This document shows, piece by piece, positions 1,629-60,652 of a stretch of 64,000 nucleotides of DNA (positions are counted from its first letter, which is position 1; each line of letters begins with the position of its first letter). The notes beneath the pieces are model-generated. The model was not told where the DNA came from. It was given only the letters and a program-made list of their open reading frames with translations, and did no database searches. The position numbers and the translations under genes were made by a program. Source of the stretch: Malacoraja senta (taxonomy: Eukaryota); the NCBI GenBank assembly GCA_038087875.1, contig CM075988.1:12526001-12590000 (forward strand), in the 5' to 3' direction.

Positions 1629-2545
1629 TAGTGAAAACAAAAAATGTTGCAACAATCAGCAGGTCAGGCCAGCATCTCAGATCCAAGAGTCATACAGCTC
1701 AGAAACAGGCTCTTGGTCCACTATGTCCATGTTGAACATCAAGCATCATTCCATACTATTCCCATCTACCAGCAAACAGCCGGCAGCCACCAATGTCTTG
1801 ATGATTAAAATGCTTGTCCCAGATGCCTAATATTGTAGTACCTTCTCCACAAACCCGTCAGACAGTGCATTCCACATTATGACTATCTGATTGAAAACAA
1901 TTATTAATTGTACAGTATTCCCTCAAAACCCTTTATTCCTTTACCCTAAACAATACCCTCTAGTTTTACATATCATCTGTGAAAAGGGAAACCGAGTTAA
2001 CATTTCAGGTCGAGGAATTGTGGGTTCTAAGTTGTGGACTAGGTCGGGGTGTATTGAACAAGGTAAAGGGGATATCTTTGACTGGGTGGTATCAGGGGGT
2101 ATCACAGAGATTTGTAGAGGTCGTCCGGTTAATGGGATAATGACAGCAATTAGAGGAGGATAATACTTACAAAGAAACATAAAATGCAGTGTTGGACATC
2201 ATCCTCAACTGGTCAGAGTGAAAGAAAATATAACTAAGATAATATCACAGATGGGTGTCTGACAGCAGAAATGGCCAAGGCTGATACTGACAGAAAAAGT
2301 GAGTAAATGCAGCTATAAAATTCAATCTTATGGAGACACAAGGAATTGCAGATGCTGGAATCTTGCGTTGAGCACAGTATGTGCTGGAGTGAATCAAATG
2401 CTTTGCCAACATCTCTGGAGGACAAGGATAAGCAACATTTTGGGTTGGAACCCCACATCAGACTCAATATTATGCCCAGTAAATTGCAATAAGCACAGGC
2501 GAAGGAGGGTTCTGTTCCTCAGGCAAGCGATGAGCCTCAATGTAA

Positions 2546-2917
2546 TGCCCCTGTCCCACTTAGGAAACCTGAACGGAAACCTCTGGAGACTTTGCGCCCC
2601 ACCCAAGGTTTCCGTGTGGTTCCCGGAGGTTCCCAGAGGTTTTTGTCAGTCTCCCTAATGTTCGAAAATGGTTTCCGCTTCTTCTATGTTCCGGCGATTA
2701 TTTCAAAAAATTCACAACCGGCCGCGACTAAAAATAGGTTGTCGTTATAAAAATCGGTAATTTTTTAGTTAAAGCCGGTTGCGATGCTAGTTGAAGGTGG
2801 TTGCCGGAGGTTGCAGGTAGTGGAAGGTAAGACCTCCCTGGTGGAATAAAACTGGGTGAAAAATAGGTCTTACCTTCCACTACCTGCAACTTAGGTTTCC
2901 TAAGTGGGACAGGGGCA
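2546..2917. mobile_element. PIF/Harbinger-type MITE
   Basis: Perfect 25-bp TIR TGCCCCTGTCCCACTTAGGAAACCT, flanked by TAA and TTA. A second copy starts at 16377. Confidence 0.85.
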
Positions 2918-3436
2918 TTATAGTACAGGAAGCCATAGAAAGACAGATCAGAACGGAAATGGGATGGAGAATAAATGTTGCAGATATAACCTCGTGCACG
3001 GTCACCATTGTGGATTGAGCAGTTTTTCCTTTTTTAACCTTTACCAATAATTATTTAGACACATATTGTCAACTGTTGTGACAAACAGTTTGCAATAACC
3101 TGTATTTTTTCTTTTAATAGAACCAACGTAGATAGTTTGAAAAGTTTCACATTAGATTCGCCTTGACACTTAATTCATAAACAAGTTAACACCACATTTA
3201 AAATGATGGTGCCAAACTGACACATGATTTAAAAAATAAATATATCAAAAAAAAGGCATTGAAAAGTACCGAAGAGAAAATGTAAGCACTGATTCCCTGG
3301 TTTGGTGTTTTAGCTGCCCCCTCCCTGTGTATGGTTGTCAACATTCAGTTTATTTAATGTCGAGGGGATTATATTGTAACTACCAGATTGGAAGAAGTAT
3401 AAGTGAATAGCTGCTTAACTTGGTATGTCTGTATAT

Positions 3437-4143
3437 CATAATCATAATAATTATAATCATACTTTATTAGCCAAATATGTTTTGCAACATACGAGGAATT
3501 GGATTTGCCATACAGTCATACCAATAAAAAGCAACAAGACACAAAAAATACATTTTAACATAAACATCCACCACAGTGACTCCTCCACATTCCTCACTGT
3601 GATGGAAGGCGAAAAAAAAGTTCAATTTCTTCCCTTCTTTGTTCTCCCGTGGTCAGGGGCTTGAGCCTTCCGTTAATGGGTCGATCTTGGCTCCCATAGG
3701 TGGCGGTCAGGCTCTCATAGCTAGGGCGAACAAGCTCCTGCATCGGGGGGATGTCAGCTCCCCGTGCTGGGCGATCGATCCAGGGGTCTGGGCTAGTCGA
3801 ACCTCCTGTGACTTTGGAGTTTACCGACATCGGTCTCTACCCGAGACTGCGAGCTCCTCGATGTTGAAATCCCCAGGCCGCAGTTGGAGCATCGATCCCA
3901 GGCCAGGGATCGCAGGCTCCCATGGTAAGTCCACAGCCCCGTGGTGGGGCTCAAAGTCTGTCTCAAGCAAGACACCAGCTCCATGATGTTAGGCCGCAGA
4001 GCGACCGGAGATACGATCCGTAAAATGATCGCATCTCCGGCAAGGCAAGAGATTGAAAAAAAGTTTACCCCGACCACCTCCCCCATCCCCCACATAAAAC
4101 AAACCAGAGAACATTAACACAAACTTTTTAAAACACACTAAAA
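3437..4143 (-). mobile_element. GC-rich non-autonomous retroposon, copy A (5'-truncated)
   Basis: Same motif order as 15468-16276 and 35264-36110. Ends in AATAAA plus a short tandem-repeat tail on the minus strand. Confidence 0.65.
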
Positions 4144-8048: not shown

Positions 8049-8377
8049 AAGCCCTGTCCCACTGTACGAGTTCATTCAAAGAGTTCTCCCGAGTTTGCCC
8101 TGATTCGAACTCGGAGATTTACGGTAATGGCCACTCGTCGGTACTCGGGGCTCTCGTGGACATTTTTCAATGTTGAAAAATCTTCATGAGTCTTCCCGAG
8201 CTTACCTGCCGTTAGTGAGTCTTCCCGAGTACCTGCCGTTAGCGTTACGAGCCGCTAAGAGACGTCCCCGAGCTCCAGACGTACCCGCTACGTTCATTCA
8301 TCTGTGCTTACCACGAGATTGATTTTTTTTTAAACTCGGGAGAGCTCTTGAATGAACTCGTACAGTGGGACAGGGCC
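8049..8377. mobile_element. PIF/Harbinger-type MITE in a Rex1-type LINE tail
   Basis: TIR GCCCTGTCCCACTGTACGAGTTCATTCAA / TTGAATGAACTCGTACAGTGGGACAGGGC. TTA on the left; the right TSD is not clear. Confidence 0.85.
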
Positions 8378-8711
8378 ATCTTGGCTCGATTGTCATCATG
8401 TATTGTCTTTCCACTGACTGGTTAGCATGCAACAAAAGCTTTGCACTGTACCTCAGTACACGTGACAACAAACTAAAACTGAAACTGAAACTCTCACTCT
8501 TCCAATGATGTGATATCTCATAATTCAAAATGTAAAAAAATGTCTTATCAGTTTGTCAACAGAAAATCACCACCATAATTATTAATATATCAATGTTCTA
8601 ATTACCAAAACAATCCACTGTTTGGCCAACAATTGCAGACAAATTGTACATAGTGGGATCCCACAAAATCTTTTATGAAAGGAATACTGGATGGTGTTTT
8701 AGAAATGCTAG

Positions 8712-9420: not shown

Positions 9421-10699
9421 GGTATTGCCAAGATTGTTAAGTATATTGGACCAGGAAGAAAGACACGGCTGTTAGTTTTACACGCGTTACATTGTCGGAA
9501 TTTATTTTTTATAGCCTTTAAATATCAGTGCCAAATTATATGTTTTTAAGCTTCACTCCGCTATGTAACATTACATCTTGCAGACACATGTTTCATATTG
9601 AAATTGCTTCAACAGATGACCCTGAAATTAGACTTGTGCTGTGCTGTCCTTAAGTGCTGTGTGAATGCAGAAACGTTACATAAATATGTACAGGCAATCA
9701 GTAACATCGGAAACACGGTGTGAAGCAGGACTAAATGTTGTGCTCTGCTTCCAAAATTCTTCTCGTAAGAAGTTAATGGAATTGAATTTCAGAAATGAAA
9801 TACGATGCACAGCTGCCCCTGCTTTACCTATTCAGGGCTGGTGACAGGGATGAACGTGCTACCATCTGCTGAGGGGTGCGCTAATGTTAGTTGTTTGCAA
9901 AGTAGTTGGATTAAAGGGAACTTTCTTGCTTGCCAAAGCTATGAACCTTCATGATGAATGCTCTGCAATTAAAAATTTGGAGCAACATTCAATAACAGGA
10001 GAAGGCTTTAATTTCGCTTTCTGACTTTTGTAGATATTGAAACCGATCAAGTGGAAGCAAATCCTTGGCAATTATTTTGGGCTGTGTAAAACCACGTTTC
10101 TAAGTGCCAACCAATGTGCTAAGCCCCCGAAGAGAACACTTGCAATATCTAAAAAGAAGAAAGCCTCCATATTGAAAATAGTAGACCACGACAGGCAGAA
10201 CTGCGTTTTGTACCATACATCCTCACGTCACTCAAAATTGGACGTCCCCATGAATGTAAGCTGATCAGTCTTCGAAACATCACTCACTACTTCTCACTTT
10301 GGAATCAAAAACACAAACCCTGGCCATTCCCTCTTCTCCCCTCTCCCATCGGGGAAAAGGTGTAGACGTGTGAAAATGCACATCTCCAGATTCAGGGACG
10401 GTTTAGTCCCAGCTGCTATAAGGCAACTGAACCATCCTAAAAGCCCTGTCTCACGGTGCGAGTTGACCCACGAGGTATTCCGAGCGAAAGACTCGTGGTT
10501 GTGCACGAGATTCCAAGTGTATGATCAAGAGTTTAACTGAGTTCCCACGGGTATGACTCAAGTTTGCCGTTAACTGTCATTTCTGCGATGTTCCAAGTTC
10601 GTCTCCCGAGTTAACAAGTTCCTTTCCCGAGTTACTCTTGAGCCAACCTTCAATGAAGGTCTGTTTTAATAAGCAACATCTCTATCCTGCGGCTTTCAG

Positions 10700-12013
10700 T
10701 TAAAGATAGAATTCAGCGCGGCCGCATCTATTGATGTGACCTACAAAGGGAAAATGCGCACCGTCCAGTGCCAGAGCAGTTATACTGATGATTTGTTTGA
10801 AACACACATCACGTAGTTAGAAGACCAGCAGGCGGAGGTTTGCTATATTTTAATTGAATTTACTGCCAGGTCTACACACTGCGGGGAGACTGGAGATTAA
10901 ATCTTTGAATGTGCACGGATGCACACATCAGATTGTTGGGAGACGGAGCTCAGGGTTCGCCTCCTGAGATGCTTTGGTGCCCAGGCATGAGTTGAGGTGG
11001 AGGGAGGTTGGGGGGGGGGGGGGGTGGGTTCAGGTTAAACTCACCCATTTGACAGAGGCAGGGGATTACGAGGATCCAGCGAGACTCGGACTGCATGGAG
11101 AGCCGAGACTGCCCCGTTGGTGGCCAACTTCCCCCTGTCCTCCGTCGCCGCTCCCAGCCGGCCGGCAGGAGCTGTGCATGGAGCCCGCCACCGGAGTCGT
11201 GTCTGACTGCCTGGGCAGCCTGAGGGAGGCAGATGCACCCTGCCCGGGGAGAGGCCGCGGAGAGACTGCGGGGGGAGTACCTCACTCTGACTGATAGGGA
11301 GAGACAGAGGCACACACACACAGTGTGGAGTTCCTTTGACTGACTGTGTGTGGGTGTGGGGGGTGGGACAGAGAGAGAGAGAGAGACACACACACACACA
11401 GGCAGCGTGGAGTACCTTTAACTGTGTGTGTGGGAGAGAGAGACAGAGGCAGGCACACACACACACAACGGGCAGTGTGTACCTCAGTCTGTGTGTGTGT
11501 GTAGGGGAGAGAGAGATACAGAGACAGTGTGGACCTCTGACTGTGTATGAAGGAGAGAGGGGGAGAGGGACAGAGAGAGAGAGGCACAGAGGCAGTGTGG
11601 TGTACTTCGGCGTGACTGTGGGGGAGAGAGAAAGAGCGCACAGGACCTCGGTCTATCTGTGTGTGTGGGAGGGAAGAGAGACTAAGCAGAATACATCGGT
11701 CTTATTGTGTGTGGGGGGAGAAAGAGAGAGGTGGGGGGGAGAAAGAGAGAAATGGGGGGGAGACGTATATACACACAAAGCAGAGTTTTACTGTGTATGT
11801 GGGAGACACAGATGGACTTACACAGATGGACTTACCTCGGTCTTACTGTGTGTGTGAGAGGGGGAGAAAGAGACGTACACTCACAGAGTCTCTCAGCCTG
11901 TGTGAGAGGGAGGGAGGGAGAGAGAGACACACACACACACAAGGTGGACGTGAAATCTCACCTGCCTGTTTCAGTGACCGGTACCCGCCGCTAGTGAATG
12001 AAGACACCCCCAT
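10700..12013 (-). CDS. Hypothetical three-exon ORF inside the TIR element (12013-11962, 11290-11045, 10740-10700; 112 aa)
   Basis: Donors CAG|GTGAGA and TGG|GTGAGT; acceptors CTCTCCCTATCAG and TTTTCCCTTTGTAG. Both introns are phase 1, the frame is open, and ATTAAA lies at 10670-10665. No recognisable domain. Confidence 0.3.
11300..11940. repeat. GA/GT/CA low-complexity tract
   Basis: Interspersed (GA)n, (GT)n and (CA)n runs in loosely repeated units. Confidence 0.9.
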
Positions 12014-13764
12014 CTGTCTCCCCCTCCTCTCCGTCCACTCCCCACCCTCTCTCCTCCACTCCCCCCCTCCCTCCTCCAACCCCCCACTCCCCCCCCCCCA
12101 ATTTGGAAATGTCATCCCATCACCCATTCCTTCTCTCCAGAGATGCTGCCTGCCCGCTGAGTTAAATAGTTCCCACGGTAGACTCACGAGTCACTAAGGT
12201 AAACGCACGGGCCACTACGTTCTTACAACGTGTTTAAATGTTTCAATTTTTTAACTCAAGAGTACATTTTACTCGTGGAAAAGTTTAAACATGTTTGAAT
12301 TTTTCCAAGAGTTAACAAGTGTCACGGGTACCTGCCGTTAGCGCCAAGAGTCGCTAAGTTGCGTCCACGAGTTGCGACGTTCCCGCTAGGTTAATCGTAC
12401 GTGATTACCACAAGTTAAATTTGTTTTAAGCTCGGGGTACCTCGTGGGTCAGCTCGCACCGTGAGACAGGGGTTTAACACAATGAGAGAGAGTAGTCCTG
12501 AGCTACTATCTACCTCATTGGAGACCCTCAGATTATCTTTGATCGGACTTTACAGGACTTTTTCTTGCACTAAACGTTATTCGATTTGTCATTTATCTGT
12601 ACATGTGGATGGCCCGATTGTGATCATATATTGTCTTTCCATTGACTGGTTAGCATGCAACAAATGGTTTTCACTGTACCTCAGTACACTTGACAAACTC
12701 AACTCAACTCAGCCACAAAAGATATCAATGCAGTAGTCAAGACAGCTGTTCCAAAGAAAATATTATAAATTTGGCTGCAAAAATGATGCATGCAGTTTAT
12801 TCAGTGATATTCAATTAAGTAACACTGGATTCTCTAATGAGCAAGGACAGATGTTGTTTTCCAAAAGCTTGTGGGATCATTTCCTAATCAAGGGAAAATA
12901 ATGTTGCTGATCCCTGACAAAATGAGGAATCACAGCTATAGGTTACGAACGTCAATTATCCAAGTTTGCATATGCAAATTAACTCTAATTGGCAAAACTC
13001 ACTTCTAAATAACCCTAAAGTAAGAATTACTCTGTAAAGTGCTTTGGAGAATTCTCATGTTTTAATGGAAATTGACTTCAATTTTTAGTTCACTTTACAC
13101 AGTCTGTCATTTCATAACATATTTTCTCTTTTTATCAGCCATTCTTCCATTTGTTGTTTTATTTTATTTTGGCACATGGTTACTTTGCCCAAACAGTAGG
13201 TTGTTAGAGGTCAAGAACACAAGAACGACGGTTCATCTTCTGAATTATTTCCCTCCTTTCATAATTCAATAGTTTCCTCTCTGTCTTCCTCTTCCACCCA
13301 CCCCCCGCTTCTGCCCCCCCCCCCCCCACACTCCCTTCTGCCCCCCACCGCTAAGTGTATTTTGCCTTGAGTACAAAAGTAAAGGGAGCATCTGCTTCCA
13401 TTTCTTACCACAATTCCACATTGCTTACTTGCACTGTGTGGGAAGGAACTGCAGATGCTGGTTTAAACTGATGGGAGACACAAAAAGCAGGAGTAACACA
13501 GCGGGACAGGCAGCATCTCTGGAGAGATGGAATGGGTGATAGACAATATAATAGGTGCAGGAGTAGGCCATTCGGCCGCTCGAGCCAGCACCACCATTCA
13601 ATGTGATCATGGCTGATCACAAATTCTGTTCACAATACTCATTGCCTGGCATCTAAAAAACCTTGGTTTGGTGACTCCTCCTATGTCCTCATGTGGCTGG
13701 AATCGATCGGCCCTTGGCTTTCTCATGAGTTCAATAGTGGGGTATTGCTCATATTATGGCAGGT

Positions 13765-22184: not shown

Positions 22185-23235
22185 GTGTAAGAAGGAACTG
22201 CAGATGCTGGTTTAAACCGAAGATAGACACAAAAAGCTGGAGTAACTCAGCGGGACAGGCAGCATCTCTGGAGAGAAGCAAAGGGTGATGTTTCAGGTCA
22301 AAACTCTTCTTCAAGACGAGTTGGCTCAACCCATAATAAAGACACCTGGGATGAAAGCTTACAATATATAAATCACTGCTCGTTAAATGCTAGACACTCC
22401 TTGATACATTTAAAAATAGACTACATTATTCTAAGGCAAAATTAAAGAGGATTTTTCCAAATATTTCCTCTCTCTGTGATAAATGTCAATTTCAAGAAGC
22501 CAACTTAACGCATACCTTTGTAACTTGTATAAAATTCTACATTTTTGGGCGGACATTTTAAAAATTATTTCTGAAGTTATCAAATATCCAACTGGACCCA
22601 GAGCCAAAATTAATAATTTTAGGATTATCAGAACATAGCACAAACTTTACGATAATTCAGAGACAATTTCTTGATTACAGTCTAATAACTGCAAAAAAAT
22701 TAATACTAAAATTTTGGAAAAACCCAGCAGCCCCAACAATTAAAATGTAGATTATGGAAATGACTGAGACCTTGCATTTGGAAAAAATAAGATTTGTCTT
22801 AATTGACAAACCAGAATTATTTGTTAGAATATGGTCTCCATTTATTGAATTTTTGAAAAAGTTAATTGGTTTAACACCAGATCAGGGTTGAAACCTGAGT
22901 TTGGGATTGGATGAATAGTTATACTCACCATTTCCTGGATCTATCTCCACAATCTTGTTATTGGTAGTTTCCTTTTGCGTCTCCTTTAAAAAAAAATTAG
23001 TTTCTCTCATCTTTTTCTCTCTTTATCATTATTCTTTTAAAAAATTAATTTAAAAAATACCTGAAGCATGTCAGAAATCTGTAATTAAATTGTCGCTCAC
23101 TATTATTTGTATACATGCTTCTAATAAAAATACTTAAATTAAAAAAAAAAAAACTCTTCTTCAGACTGAAGGGTCTCGACCTGAAGCGTCACCCATTCCT
23201 TCTCTCCAGAGATGCTGCCTGTCCCGCTGAGTAAT
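22185..23235. mobile_element. Penelope-like fold-back terminus split by L1
   Basis: Arms at 22185-22313 and 23150-23235 lie in opposite orientation. Confidence 0.8.
22314..23149 (+). mobile_element. L1-clade LINE, 5'-truncated (ORF2 C-terminus + 3' UTR + polyA)
   Basis: RLHYSKAKLKRIFP..SLCDKCQFQEANLTHTFVTC (CCHC knuckle)...AKKLILKFWK...LHLEKIRF...IWSPFIEFL. AATAAA plus A-tail, with 14-bp TSD AAAACTCTTCTTCA. Confidence 0.9.
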
Positions 23236-60443: not shown

Positions 60444-60652
60444 CTGTGTGGGAAGAAACTGCAGATGCTGGTTGAAACCAAAGATAGACACAAAAAGCTG
60501 GAGTAACTCAGCGGGACAGGCAGCATCCCTGGAGAGAAGCAATGGGTGATGTTTCGGGTCCGAAGAAGGGTCTCGACCCAAAATGTCACACATTTCTTCT
60601 CTCCAGGGATGCTGCCAGTCCCGCTGAGTTAATCCAGCTTTTTGTGTCTATC
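60444..60652 (-). mobile_element. Penelope-derived fold-back insertion
   Basis: Inverted arms plus an unpaired tail, with 11-bp TSD CTCTTTTAACA. Confidence 0.88.

What the first reader, a model, noticed from the sequence alone, without database searches (positions are those of the whole stretch)
10441..12474. Harbinger-type TIR element carrying a complete-looking three-exon spliced ORF (Pack-type cargo)
Seen: 37-bp TIRs and a TAA duplication bound 2034 bp inserted in a Rex1 3' UTR. The minus-strand cargo reads ATG at 12013, exon 12013-11962, CAG|GTGAGA, a 671-nt microsatellite-rich intron, CTCTCCCTATCAG|, a 246-nt GC-rich exon (11290-11045), G|GTGAGT, a 304-nt intron, TTTTCCCTTTGTAG|, and exon 10740-10700 ending in TAA. 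ATTAAA follows 30 nt later, just before element sequence resumes. Both introns are phase 1 and the joined frame is stop-free: MGVSSFTSGGYRSLKQAVRVRYSPR...WILVIPCLCQMGHINRCGRAEFYL (112 aa). Established: DNA transposons capture intron-containing host fragments (Pack-MULEs in plants), and autonomous Harbingers carry a second, Myb/SANT-like gene. Inference: this is host gene capture by a vertebrate Harbinger, or a remnant of an element-borne gene. The terminal EFYL resembles class II PDZ-binding tails such as syndecan EFYA. Caveats: no domain is recognisable, GC-rich DNA is often open by chance, and exon 2 has a second open frame (…KLATNGAVSALHAVRVSLDPRNPLPLSNG) that could be the donor's real frame.
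Basis: partly seen in the sequence, partly recalled or inferred. Interest (0 to 1): 0.8.

Follow-up and report, generated by a model that had tools for sequence, protein, structure and literature searches.

The report
Non-autonomous Harbinger transposon with filler DNA
This is one copy of a several-hundred-copy, non-autonomous Harbinger-type DNA transposon whose middle is foreign filler DNA, and the neat three-exon reading frame inside it shows no sign of being a real gene.

Summary
The sequence features are real. The element is 2034 bp with 35/37-matching TIRs and a TAA duplication, and paralogues of the host repeat show the empty site. The stop-free 112-codon, three-"exon" frame with GT/AG borders and a downstream ATTAAA is also there.

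It is not a one-off capture. An exon-2 23-mer occurs 402 times in the 1.94-Gb genome and the left arm/cargo junction 653 times. Copies lie a median 1.7% from their consensus. The roughly 207-bp and 311-bp arms are shared with a much larger 1.8-kb sister family that still holds the 3' end of a Harbinger transposase gene. The 1.5-kb middle is unrelated to that family and includes a 47-bp piece of a very abundant SINE-like repeat. This supports "Harbinger-type element with heterologous cargo".

The gene reading is not supported:
- Substitutions are neutral (omega about 0.99).
- 16 of 30 copies have a broken frame.
- Exons are no better conserved than introns or arms.
- Exon 2 is open in all three frames.
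- Two in-frame ATGs lie upstream.
- No Pfam match or protein homologue was found.

No TIR-less parental locus was found, but that search was partial. The four strong splice-like sites exceed simple chance, so a captured fragment of a host transcript is not excluded.

The parts
10438..10440 (.). Left copy of the TAA target-site duplication
   Evidence: Paralogues of the host repeat show the uninterrupted site.
10441..10477 (+). Left terminal inverted repeat
   Evidence: 35 of 37 positions match the reverse complement of 12438-12474. The repeat finder I1 gives 53 nt at 87%.
10441..10647 (+). Left arm: TIR plus subterminal region, with a 21-nt tandem repeat at 10594-10634
   Evidence: 85-90% identical to the left arm of the 1.8-kb sister family. 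Homology stops sharply at 10647. Holds 3 CACGAG motifs. TRF result.
10648..12163 (.). Heterologous internal segment (cargo or filler), present in the family consensus
   Evidence: No similarity to the sister family's interior, to 30 DDE_Tnp_4 loci or to L061. An exon-2 23-mer occurs 402 times and the left junction 24-mer 653 times in the genome.
10665..10670 (-). ATTAAA hexamer, 29 nt after the frame's stop codon
10700..10740 (-).
   Evidence: Divergence from consensus is 1.3%, like its neighbours.
10741..11044 (-).
11045..11290 (-).
11291..11961 (-).
   Evidence: Highest indel load among copies (5%).
11962..12013 (-). The ATG at 12013 is preceded by in-frame ATGs at 12127 and 12115.
12020..12089 (.). 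C-rich 20-nt tandem repeat
12118..12166 (+). Fragment of a hyper-abundant SINE-like repeat, ending at its TTA where the right arm begins
   Evidence: Ten other matches within the window. About 100-fold excess contig depth, with loose ends continuing into the repeat on both sides in all 4 runs.
12164..12474 (+). Right arm: subterminal region with a 21-nt tandem repeat at 12177-12217, plus the TIR
   Evidence: 92% identical to the sister family's right arm, with homology starting at 12164. Holds 4 CACGAG motifs.
12438..12474 (-). Right terminal inverted repeat
12475..12477 (.). Right copy of the TAA duplication
10317..10439 (.). Left part of the interrupted host repeat
   Evidence: Aligns to paralogue L067 immediately before the part that aligns to 12475-12715.
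12475..12715 (.). Right part of the interrupted host repeat (a retroelement-like tail; Rex1 identity not verified)
   Evidence: 5724 first-look candidates, with scored hits at 82-89% identity. Bridged by paralogues.

Best explanation
The stretch 10441-12474 is one copy of a young family of non-autonomous PIF/Harbinger-type DNA transposons. The family consensus is about 2.05 kb and there are roughly 400-650 copies.

The element has two arms, of about 207 bp on the left and 311 bp on the right. The arms carry the TIRs and repeated CACGAG-type subterminal motifs. A Harbinger transposase supplied in trans, probably with its Myb-like partner, would recognise these, cut the element out and paste it into TWA sites. 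Here it went into a TAA in the tail of an abundant repeat.

Between the arms, the transposase region seen in a sister family has been replaced by 1.5 kb of unrelated DNA. This DNA is a patchwork: a unique stretch, a G run, a 246-bp CpG-rich stretch, satellite repeats, a C-rich repeat and a 47-bp SINE fragment. It was most likely acquired once by template switching during repair or replication, and then amplified with the element.

The three-'exon' 112-codon frame is a property of that ancestral filler. It is most likely fortuitous and not a gene.

Shown: the TIRs, the duplication, the empty site, the copy number, the shared arms, the foreign interior and the neutral decay. Inferred: trans-mobilisation, the capture mechanism and the non-coding status.
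For: Structure.

Transposition: 3 of 3 paralogues bridge the site. In 30 of 34 copies both ends were found; 28 of those 30 have TAA or TTA on both sides and 21 of 30 are identical.

Family:
- 29 further near-full-length copies at 91-95% identity, out of 3344 first-look candidates of which 40 were scored.
- 402 and 653 motif matches against 0 for the reversed controls.
- Median 1.7% divergence from consensus.

Harbinger link: the sister family has the same arms. Its interior is 66-68% identical over about 300 nt to the 3' end of transposase ORFs in loci that pass the DDE_Tnp_4 cut-off.

Foreign interior: no similarity to that family, to the 30 transposase loci or to L061. It also contains a SINE fragment.

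Not coding:
- Against the consensus there are 51 synonymous, 126 non-synonymous and 2 stop changes, giving omega about 0.99. Changes by codon position are 66/54/59.
- Divergence is 1.3-2.2% in exons, 1.4-2.0% in introns and 1.7-1.8% in arm interiors.
- 16 of 30 copies are disrupted: 12 by frameshift, 2 by premature stop, 1 by a lost stop and 1 by a double shift. Three of 4 further copies are also disrupted.
- Exon 2 is open in all three minus-strand frames.
- 16 alternative spliced ORFs reach 100-249 aa.
- Pfam gave nothing above cut-off for 8 of 8 frames.
- Three word-indexed protein searches were empty.
- phmmer against 1.84 billion representatives gave only two hits. One matches a weak 33-aa segment repeated 11 times in a bacterial SdrD-like repeat protein; the other (15 short matched stretches) looks like a low-complexity match and I did not align it.
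Against: All four proposed splice sites are strong and lie on one strand. That strand has 3 strong donors and 5 strong acceptors, against 0 and 1 on the other. My shuffles and natural windows never produced a three-exon ORF of this length (0 of 800 and 0 of 116). The arrangement is therefore less likely by chance than an ordinary open frame.

The consensus keeps the frame intact.

Neutral decay of dispersed copies is expected even if the source was a gene, so it does not rule out a genic origin.

The autonomous partner was not found. A cargo derived from an unseen part of it is therefore not excluded.

The Pfam match of the sister family's remnant to DDE_Tnp_4 is below threshold on its own (E 0.058).
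Confidence: 0.78

Rival explanations
1. This is a true multicopy Pack-type Harbinger. Under this reading the cargo, or at least the CpG-rich 'exon 2' with its GTGAGT donor and neighbouring intron, is a captured fragment of a host transcription unit. An example would be a CpG-island 5' exon with real splice sites. It would now be dispersed in hundreds of copies that could donate exons, splice sites or promoters to nearby genes. The 112-aa frame need not be the donor's frame.
For: Four strong splice-like sites lie on one strand, and the controls gave 0 of 116 windows and 0 of 800 shuffles. Exon 2 has GC 0.67 and CpG o/e 0.61 in the consensus. The interior is foreign to the Harbinger lineage and patchy, as in captured DNA. 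In run X1, whose RNA label is only a guess, a 6487-letter contig carries only 11096-11335, with 16 other letters and 24 gap letters, and then continues into unrelated sequence. It is colinear across the proposed acceptor at 11290. Pack-TIRs with captured 5' UTR pieces are known in vertebrates (PMC8277862, passages read).
Against: No parental locus was found. On contig C1 (396 of 1944 Mb), 60 of 62 exact exon-2 motif sites have the left arm. The other 2 belong to a rearranged subfamily that still ends in the right TIR. No frame of exon 2 matches any protein. The polypyrimidine acceptors and GTGAG donors fall in or next to (TC)n- and (TG)n-type repeats, where such motifs arise easily. The X1 contig could equally be a truncated family copy inside another transcript or inside DNA.
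Confidence: 0.15
2. The frame is, or recently was, an element-borne gene of the Harbinger itself. It would be the second, DNA-binding (Myb/SANT-like) gene or a small accessory protein, kept in a non-autonomous derivative.
For: The consensus frame is intact and has a nearby ATTAAA. Autonomous Harbingers carry a second gene; this point is established knowledge recalled by me, not tested here.
Against: There is no Myb/SANT or other Pfam match. There is no similarity to the sister family's interior or to the genome's main Harbinger family. Omega is about 0.99 and 16 of 30 frames are broken. The residue make-up is that of translated GC-rich DNA, and all frames are open. The cargo includes a SINE fragment and satellites, which are not typical of a transposon gene.
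Confidence: 0.03
3. This is an assembly artefact or a chance inverted repeat, not a mobile element.
For: None found.
Against: Hundreds of dispersed copies have distinct flanks and TWA duplications. Paralogues show the empty site. The sequence is present in contigs of runs from at least three further coded organisms.
Confidence: 0.01

Closest known systems
Non-autonomous PIF/Harbinger elements (internally replaced derivatives, larger than Tourist-type MITEs)
   Same: There is a 3-bp TWA duplication, TIRs of about 37 bp, subterminal repeated motifs and no transposase. The arms are shared with a transposase-remnant family. Copy number is high and the copies are young.
   Different: At 2 kb it is larger than a MITE. 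Its interior is not a deletion product of the known relatives but unrelated DNA. The autonomous partner was not identified here.
Pack-TIR / Pack-TYPE elements (Pack-MULE, Pack-CACTA; animal Pack-TIRs of PMC8277862; Harbinger Turmoil-1 transduplication in C. elegans, PMC2572040)
   Same: TIR arms enclose foreign DNA that was then amplified by transposition. The cargo is patchy and has intron-like and exon-like parts.
   Different: Those families are defined by an identified parental gene copy, and none was found here. In the passages I read, PMC8277862 reports only 4 multicopy cases among 370 animal Pack-TIRs and gives one frog example spread over three chromosomes; this family has hundreds of copies. 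The word 'Harbinger' does not occur in that paper's main text. Its supplementary tables were not read.
Filler DNA in abortive gap-repair derivatives of cut-and-paste transposons (Ac/Ds and P-element internal replacements; recalled, not checked here)
   Same: The arm/interior boundaries are sharp, with an ambiguous run of A at the right junction. The interior is a mosaic that includes a piece of a common repeat.
   Different: The mechanism is inferred only. No donor sites for the patches were identified.

Membership tests
PIF/Harbinger superfamily (non-autonomous member) | 3-bp target-site duplication at TWA (TAA/TTA) | tested here: met
   The window copy has TAA on both sides. Of 30 copies with both ends found, 28 have TAA or TTA on both sides and 21 are identical. 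Paralogues show the empty site.
PIF/Harbinger superfamily (non-autonomous member) | Terminal inverted repeats of tens of bp | tested here: met
   35 of 37 positions match. Ends are conserved in the copies.
PIF/Harbinger superfamily (non-autonomous member) | Ends shared with an element encoding a DDE_Tnp_4 (Harbinger) transposase | tested here: inconclusive
   The sister family has the same arms. It holds a remnant that is 66-68% identical over about 300 nt to the 3' end of transposase ORFs in loci passing the DDE_Tnp_4 cut-off. On its own the remnant scores E 0.058, below the cut-off. No full autonomous copy with these arms was recovered.
PIF/Harbinger superfamily (non-autonomous member) | Second Myb/SANT-like gene in the autonomous partner | not tested
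   The partner was not found. The cargo frames have no Myb/SANT Pfam match.
Pack-TIR / Pack-type transposon | TIR- and TSD-bounded element whose interior is unrelated to the transposon lineage | tested here: met
   This holds relative to the sister family and the main Harbinger family; the true autonomous partner is unknown.
Pack-TIR / Pack-type transposon | Identifiable parental host gene copy of the captured sequence outside any TIRs | tested here: inconclusive
   None found. Of 62 exact-motif sites on contig C1, 60 have the left arm and 2 are a rearranged subfamily that keeps the right TIR. The tools list only the best 40 or the first 100 places, so about 80% of the genome was not checked site by site.
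Pack-TIR / Pack-type transposon | Cargo homologous to a gene or protein | tested here: not met
   No Pfam match above cut-off and no protein homologue in any frame tested.
MITE (Tourist-like) | Small size (under about 800 bp) with no coding capacity | tested here: not met
   The element is 2034 bp. A related MITE of about 330 bp, of a type with similar TIRs, lies at 8049-8378.
Protein-coding gene (the 112-aa frame) | Purifying selection, or exons better conserved than introns | tested here: not met
   Omega is about 0.99 with no third-position excess. Exons and introns are equally diverged. 16 of 30 frames are broken.
Protein-coding gene (the 112-aa frame) | Spliced transcript using the proposed junctions | not testable with these tools
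   No run on record as RNA holds the stretch, and only assembled contigs could be laid.

The most novel reading that the evidence does not exclude
A vertebrate Harbinger family picked up the 5' end of a host gene: a CpG-rich first exon with real donor and acceptor sites and intervening intron. It then spread that fragment to about 400-650 places. In the passages I read of the animal survey (PMC8277862), only 4 of 370 Pack-TIRs were multicopy, so a family this large would stand out. It would also be a ready-made source of dispersed exons, splice sites or promoters for chimeric transcripts.
Probability: 0.15. Interest if true: 0.55.

Novelty: new member of a known kind. Interest (0 to 1): 0.2.

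Why it matters
As it stands this is routine repeat annotation: a non-autonomous Harbinger family with a replaced interior. The practical lesson is that a tidy spliced frame inside GC-rich, strand-skewed, repeat-rich transposon filler is weak evidence for a gene. Gene predictors may mis-call hundreds of such copies.

It would matter more if a parental locus or spliced transcripts turned up. In the survey passages I read, multicopy capture by cut-and-paste transposons was rare in animals, and a family of several hundred copies would allow direct study of how captured exons are spread and reused.

Tried and rejected
RNA evidence. No RNA holder is listed: the look-up of sequencing runs listed no holder on record as RNA. 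I laid X1, X3, X4 and X6, all of them assembled contigs. None of the 15 joints shown is at 11962/11290 or 11045/10740, but 15 more joints were not shown. Contigs cannot show rare spliced forms, so this is no evidence either way.

The joints linking about 11021-11028 to about 12118-12127 have sides of only 19-24 letters next to homopolymer runs and the abundant SINE. I treated them as repeat artefacts.

Autonomous partner.
- The 30 DDE_Tnp_4 loci and a 10-kb stretch around one of them (L061) share nothing with the element beyond a 15-nt TIR-tip match.
- Searching with the sister family's remnant returned only more deleted copies: 150 scored of 3449 candidates.
- The one hit with a longer open frame (L070) was another deleted copy with a frameshift.

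Older subfamily for a selection test. Four copies that BLAST scored at 85-88% proved 92-99% identical to the consensus once indels in the satellites were set aside. No deep divergence is therefore available for a selection test.

Parental locus. DNA searches score only the best 40 candidates and pattern searches list only 100 places. I could check only contig C1 site by site.

Protein hits. P0001 and P0002 were rejected as repeat or low-complexity artefacts.

Rex1 identity of the host repeat was not confirmed. Rfam gave no match in 9800-13200 at E up to 0.1. Earlier findings of this scan returned nothing.

The whole spliced 112-aa protein could not be sent to any protein tool, so only exon-wise and stop-to-stop frames were searched. 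No fold was predicted. The EFYL/PDZ idea rests on four residues and was not testable.
Full report
**1. What is in the sequence**

- The element runs 10441-12474, 2034 bp.
- Its 37-nt ends match at 35 of 37 positions. The repeat finder extends the inverted repeat to 53 nt at 87%.
- TAA lies on both sides, at 10438-10440 and 12475-12477.
- On the minus strand, 12013-11962, 11290-11045 and 10740-10700 join to 339 nt. They read as a stop-free 112 codons ending EFYL.
- The donors read CAG|GTGAGA and TGG|GTGAGT. Both acceptors follow pyrimidine-rich tracts. Both introns are phase 1.
- ATTAAA begins 29 nt after the stop.

Two points qualify 'complete-looking'. In-frame ATGs at 12127 and 12115 lie upstream with no stop between them. 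Exon 2 (GC 0.67-0.70) is open in all three minus-strand frames and largely open on the plus strand.

**2. It is a real insertion**

The right flank belongs to a very abundant repeat: 5724 first-look candidates, with 40 scored at 82-89% identity. I fetched three paralogues. All three align to 10317/10378-10439 and then directly to 12475 onward, without the element and with a single copy of the target. I could not confirm that this host repeat is Rex1. None of the six ORFs I tested in 9550-10365 had a Pfam match.

**3. It is a family, not a single capture**

The whole 2034 bp, cargo included, recurs in the window's own 1.94-Gb genome.
- 29 other near-full-length copies were returned at 91-95% identity, out of 3344 first-look candidates of which 40 were scored.
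- A 23-nt exon-2 motif has 402 matches with up to 2 mismatches. The reversed control has 0.
- A 24-nt motif across the left arm/cargo junction has 653 matches, with control 0.
- Thirty aligned copies lie 1.2-3.2% (median 1.7%) from their consensus.
- In 30 of 34 copies both ends could be found. Of those 30, 28 have TAA or TTA on both sides and 21 have identical triplets. Seven read TAA on one side and TTA on the other.

**4. Why Harbinger, and where the arms end**

The genome holds many Harbinger transposase genes: 150 scored matches over the DDE_Tnp_4 cut-off out of 534 candidates. None of the 30 fetched loci, nor 10 kb around one of them, resembles this element.

Next to two copies (L027, L028) lies a 1.8-kb sister element.
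- Its left 207 nt are 85-90% identical to this element's left arm.
- Its last roughly 307 nt are 92% identical to the right arm.
- Its interior differs from this element's cargo.
- Positions about 265-564 of that interior are 66-68% identical to the 3' end of the transposase ORFs in the DDE_Tnp_4 loci.
- Its 154-aa frame touches the last 36 positions of the Pfam model, at E 0.058. That is below threshold on its own.

The sister family is far larger: 3449 first-look candidates, with all 150 scored at 94-100% identity. Homology between the two families stops sharply at window 10647 on the left and begins at 12164 on the right. This defines the arms and a 1516-nt interior at 10648-12163. The arms hold 7 CACGAG motifs; the interior holds 0. 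Each arm also has a 21-nt tandem repeat.

The greater summed contig depth over the arms than over the cargo in the laid runs is consistent with shared arms. Depth of this kind is not a copy number.

**5. What the interior is**

It is a patchwork:
- about 340 nt of unique sequence;
- a G run;
- the 246-nt CpG-rich stretch (CpG o/e 0.61);
- about 670 nt of micro- and minisatellites;
- a C-rich 20-nt repeat;
- at 12118-12166, a fragment of a hyper-abundant SINE-like repeat.

The SINE fragment has ten further copies inside this window alone. In all four runs it shows about 100-fold excess contig depth, with loose ends that continue into the full repeat on both sides. The fragment ends at the repeat's TTA, exactly where the right arm begins. 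The same TTA in that repeat is the insertion site of other family copies such as L007 and L010.

The interior has no similarity to the sister family's interior or to the main Harbinger family. The transposon's own middle was replaced by foreign DNA, most simply by template switching during repair or replication, before the family amplified. That mechanism is inferred, not shown.

**6. Is the frame a gene?**

The evidence is against it.

(a) Conservation. Divergence from the consensus is 1.3-2.2% in the three exons, 1.4-2.0% in the introns and 1.7-1.8% in the arm interiors.

(b) Substitutions. In the proposed frame there are 51 synonymous, 126 non-synonymous and 2 stop-gain changes. This gives omega about 0.99. 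Changes are spread 66/54/59 over codon positions. The other two frames give 0.79 and 1.08.

(c) Integrity. Fourteen of 30 copies keep the full frame. Twelve have frameshifts, 2 have premature stops, 1 lost its stop and 1 has two compensating shifts. Of four further copies, 1 is intact. GT is kept at both donors, and AG at the second acceptor, in 30 of 30 copies. AG at the first acceptor is kept in 28 of 30. At 1.7% divergence that is no more than the surrounding bases.

(d) Homology. Pfam found nothing above cut-off for 8 of 8 frames; one sub-threshold DUF match scored 15.1 bits against a cut-off of 23.5. One is a weak 33-aa match repeated 11 times in a bacterial SdrD-like repeat protein. The other has 15 short matched stretches and looks like a low-complexity match; I did not align it.

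(e) Alternatives. With the same site criteria, the strand offers 16 spliced ORFs of 100-249 aa.

Neutral decay of dispersed copies would be expected even for a captured gene. Points (a)-(c) therefore show only that nothing maintains the frame now. Points (d) and (e) are what make a genic origin of this particular frame unlikely.

**7. What still speaks for something genic**

The four sites are strong and all lie on one strand. That strand has 3 strong donors and 5 strong acceptors, against 0 and 1 on the other.

A three-exon ORF of at least 112 aa with sites this strong appeared in 0 of 116 natural 2-kb windows and in 0 of 800 block shuffles. Two-exon ORFs of that length appeared in 2 of 116 windows and in 4-9.5% of shuffles. 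My site scores are crude. Shuffles destroy the (TC)n- and (TG)n-type repeats that generate such motifs. The structure was also picked post hoc from 64 kb. Even so, this is more than an ordinary open frame.

In run X1, whose RNA label is only a guess, a 6487-letter contig carries only 11096-11335 and then runs on into other sequence. It has 16 other letters and 24 gap letters, and it is colinear across the proposed acceptor. This could be a donor-like locus in another organism. It could equally be a truncated copy.

**8. Search for a parental locus**

The tools score only the best 40 DNA candidates and list only 100 pattern places, so I could test only contig C1 (396 of 1944 Mb) site by site. 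C1 has 62 exact exon-2 motif sites.
- 46 pair with an exact left-junction motif at the expected distance.
- 2 are known full-length copies (L008, L018).
- 12 of the remaining 14 show the left arm on fetching.
- The last 2 (L085, L086) belong to a rearranged subfamily. It starts inside exon 2, is preceded by a shared segment of about 150 nt containing the SINE in reverse, and still ends in the right TIR with different flanks.

So 0 of 62 sites are TIR-less. This is a partial negative.

**9. Comparison with what is known**

It works like, and meets the tested criteria of, a non-autonomous PIF/Harbinger element: TWA duplication, TIRs, and arms shared with a transposase-remnant family.

It resembles Pack-type elements in having foreign DNA between TIRs. 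However, the defining parental gene copy was not found, and the cargo matches no gene. I therefore do not file it as a Pack-TIR.

Capture by cut-and-paste transposons in animals is in print.
- PMC8277862 reports 370 Pack-TIRs in 100 animal genomes. 87% are hAT or TcMariner and only 4 are multicopy. I read the passages around my search terms; 'Harbinger' has 0 occurrences in the main text, and I did not read the supplements.
- PMC2572040 describes the Harbinger Turmoil-1 in C. elegans, which incorporated two coding fragments. I read the abstract and passages.

**10. Verdict**

It is a new member of a known kind, and interest is low (0.2). The open, more interesting possibility has a probability of about 0.15: that the CpG-rich piece and its splice-like sites come from a real host transcript and were spread to hundreds of sites.

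Noticed in passing
window 8049-8378: A short element of about 330 bp has related TIRs; the tip differs at a few positions from this element's. It follows a TTA. Another copy of this type lies in L003 near position 1163. It appears to be a Tourist-like MITE relative of the same Harbinger lineage (a 75% match of 8223-8375 to the right arm).
   Followed up: partly
L028:3397-5221 region and L027:1-1430 (reverse); also L070: A 1.8-kb sister family shares both arms and holds a 154-aa frame that is the 3' end of a Harbinger transposase. It gave 3449 first-look candidates, and the 150 scored were 94-100% identical. It is far more abundant than the cargo-bearing family.
   Followed up: yes
L034-L061 (e.g. 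L061:4545-5843, minus strand): The main Harbinger family of this genome has many copies 96-99% identical over more than 3 kb, with uninterrupted transposase frames of 432-478 aa. This suggests recent activity. Its ends were not found, and it is unrelated to the element studied.
   Followed up: partly
window 12118-12166, and ten other places in the window (e.g. 23189-23232, 22243-22290, 60504-60551): This is a hyper-abundant SINE-like repeat. Its internal TTA is a recurrent target of this transposon family: copies L007 and L010 sit in it.
   Followed up: partly
L085:579-1540 and L086:1453-2837: A rearranged subfamily has two dispersed copies with different flanks. Both begin at the same point inside 'exon 2' (consensus position 674). 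Both are preceded by a shared segment of about 150 nt containing the SINE in reverse orientation, and both end in the normal right TIR. How a form with only one recognisable TIR spread is unexplained.
   Followed up: partly
window 11053-11324 as seen in run X6: In the coded organism C, summed contig depth over 'exon 2' (about 0.4-1.2 thousand) is 10-50 times lower than over the neighbouring cargo parts (6-21 thousand). This hints that most relatives there lack this piece or have diverged in it. Depth of this kind is a poor measure, so this is only a lead.
   Followed up: no
L066 (about 2200-3900) and other flanks: Reverse-transcriptase-like open frames lie beside the sister-family copies, probably from a LINE. 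They were seen in the ORF list and not examined.
   Followed up: no
30 family copies: Seven of 30 copies read TAA on one side and TTA on the other. Two of the seven can be reconciled by shifting one terminal A. That is more middle-base mismatches than 1.7% divergence would predict.
   Followed up: partly
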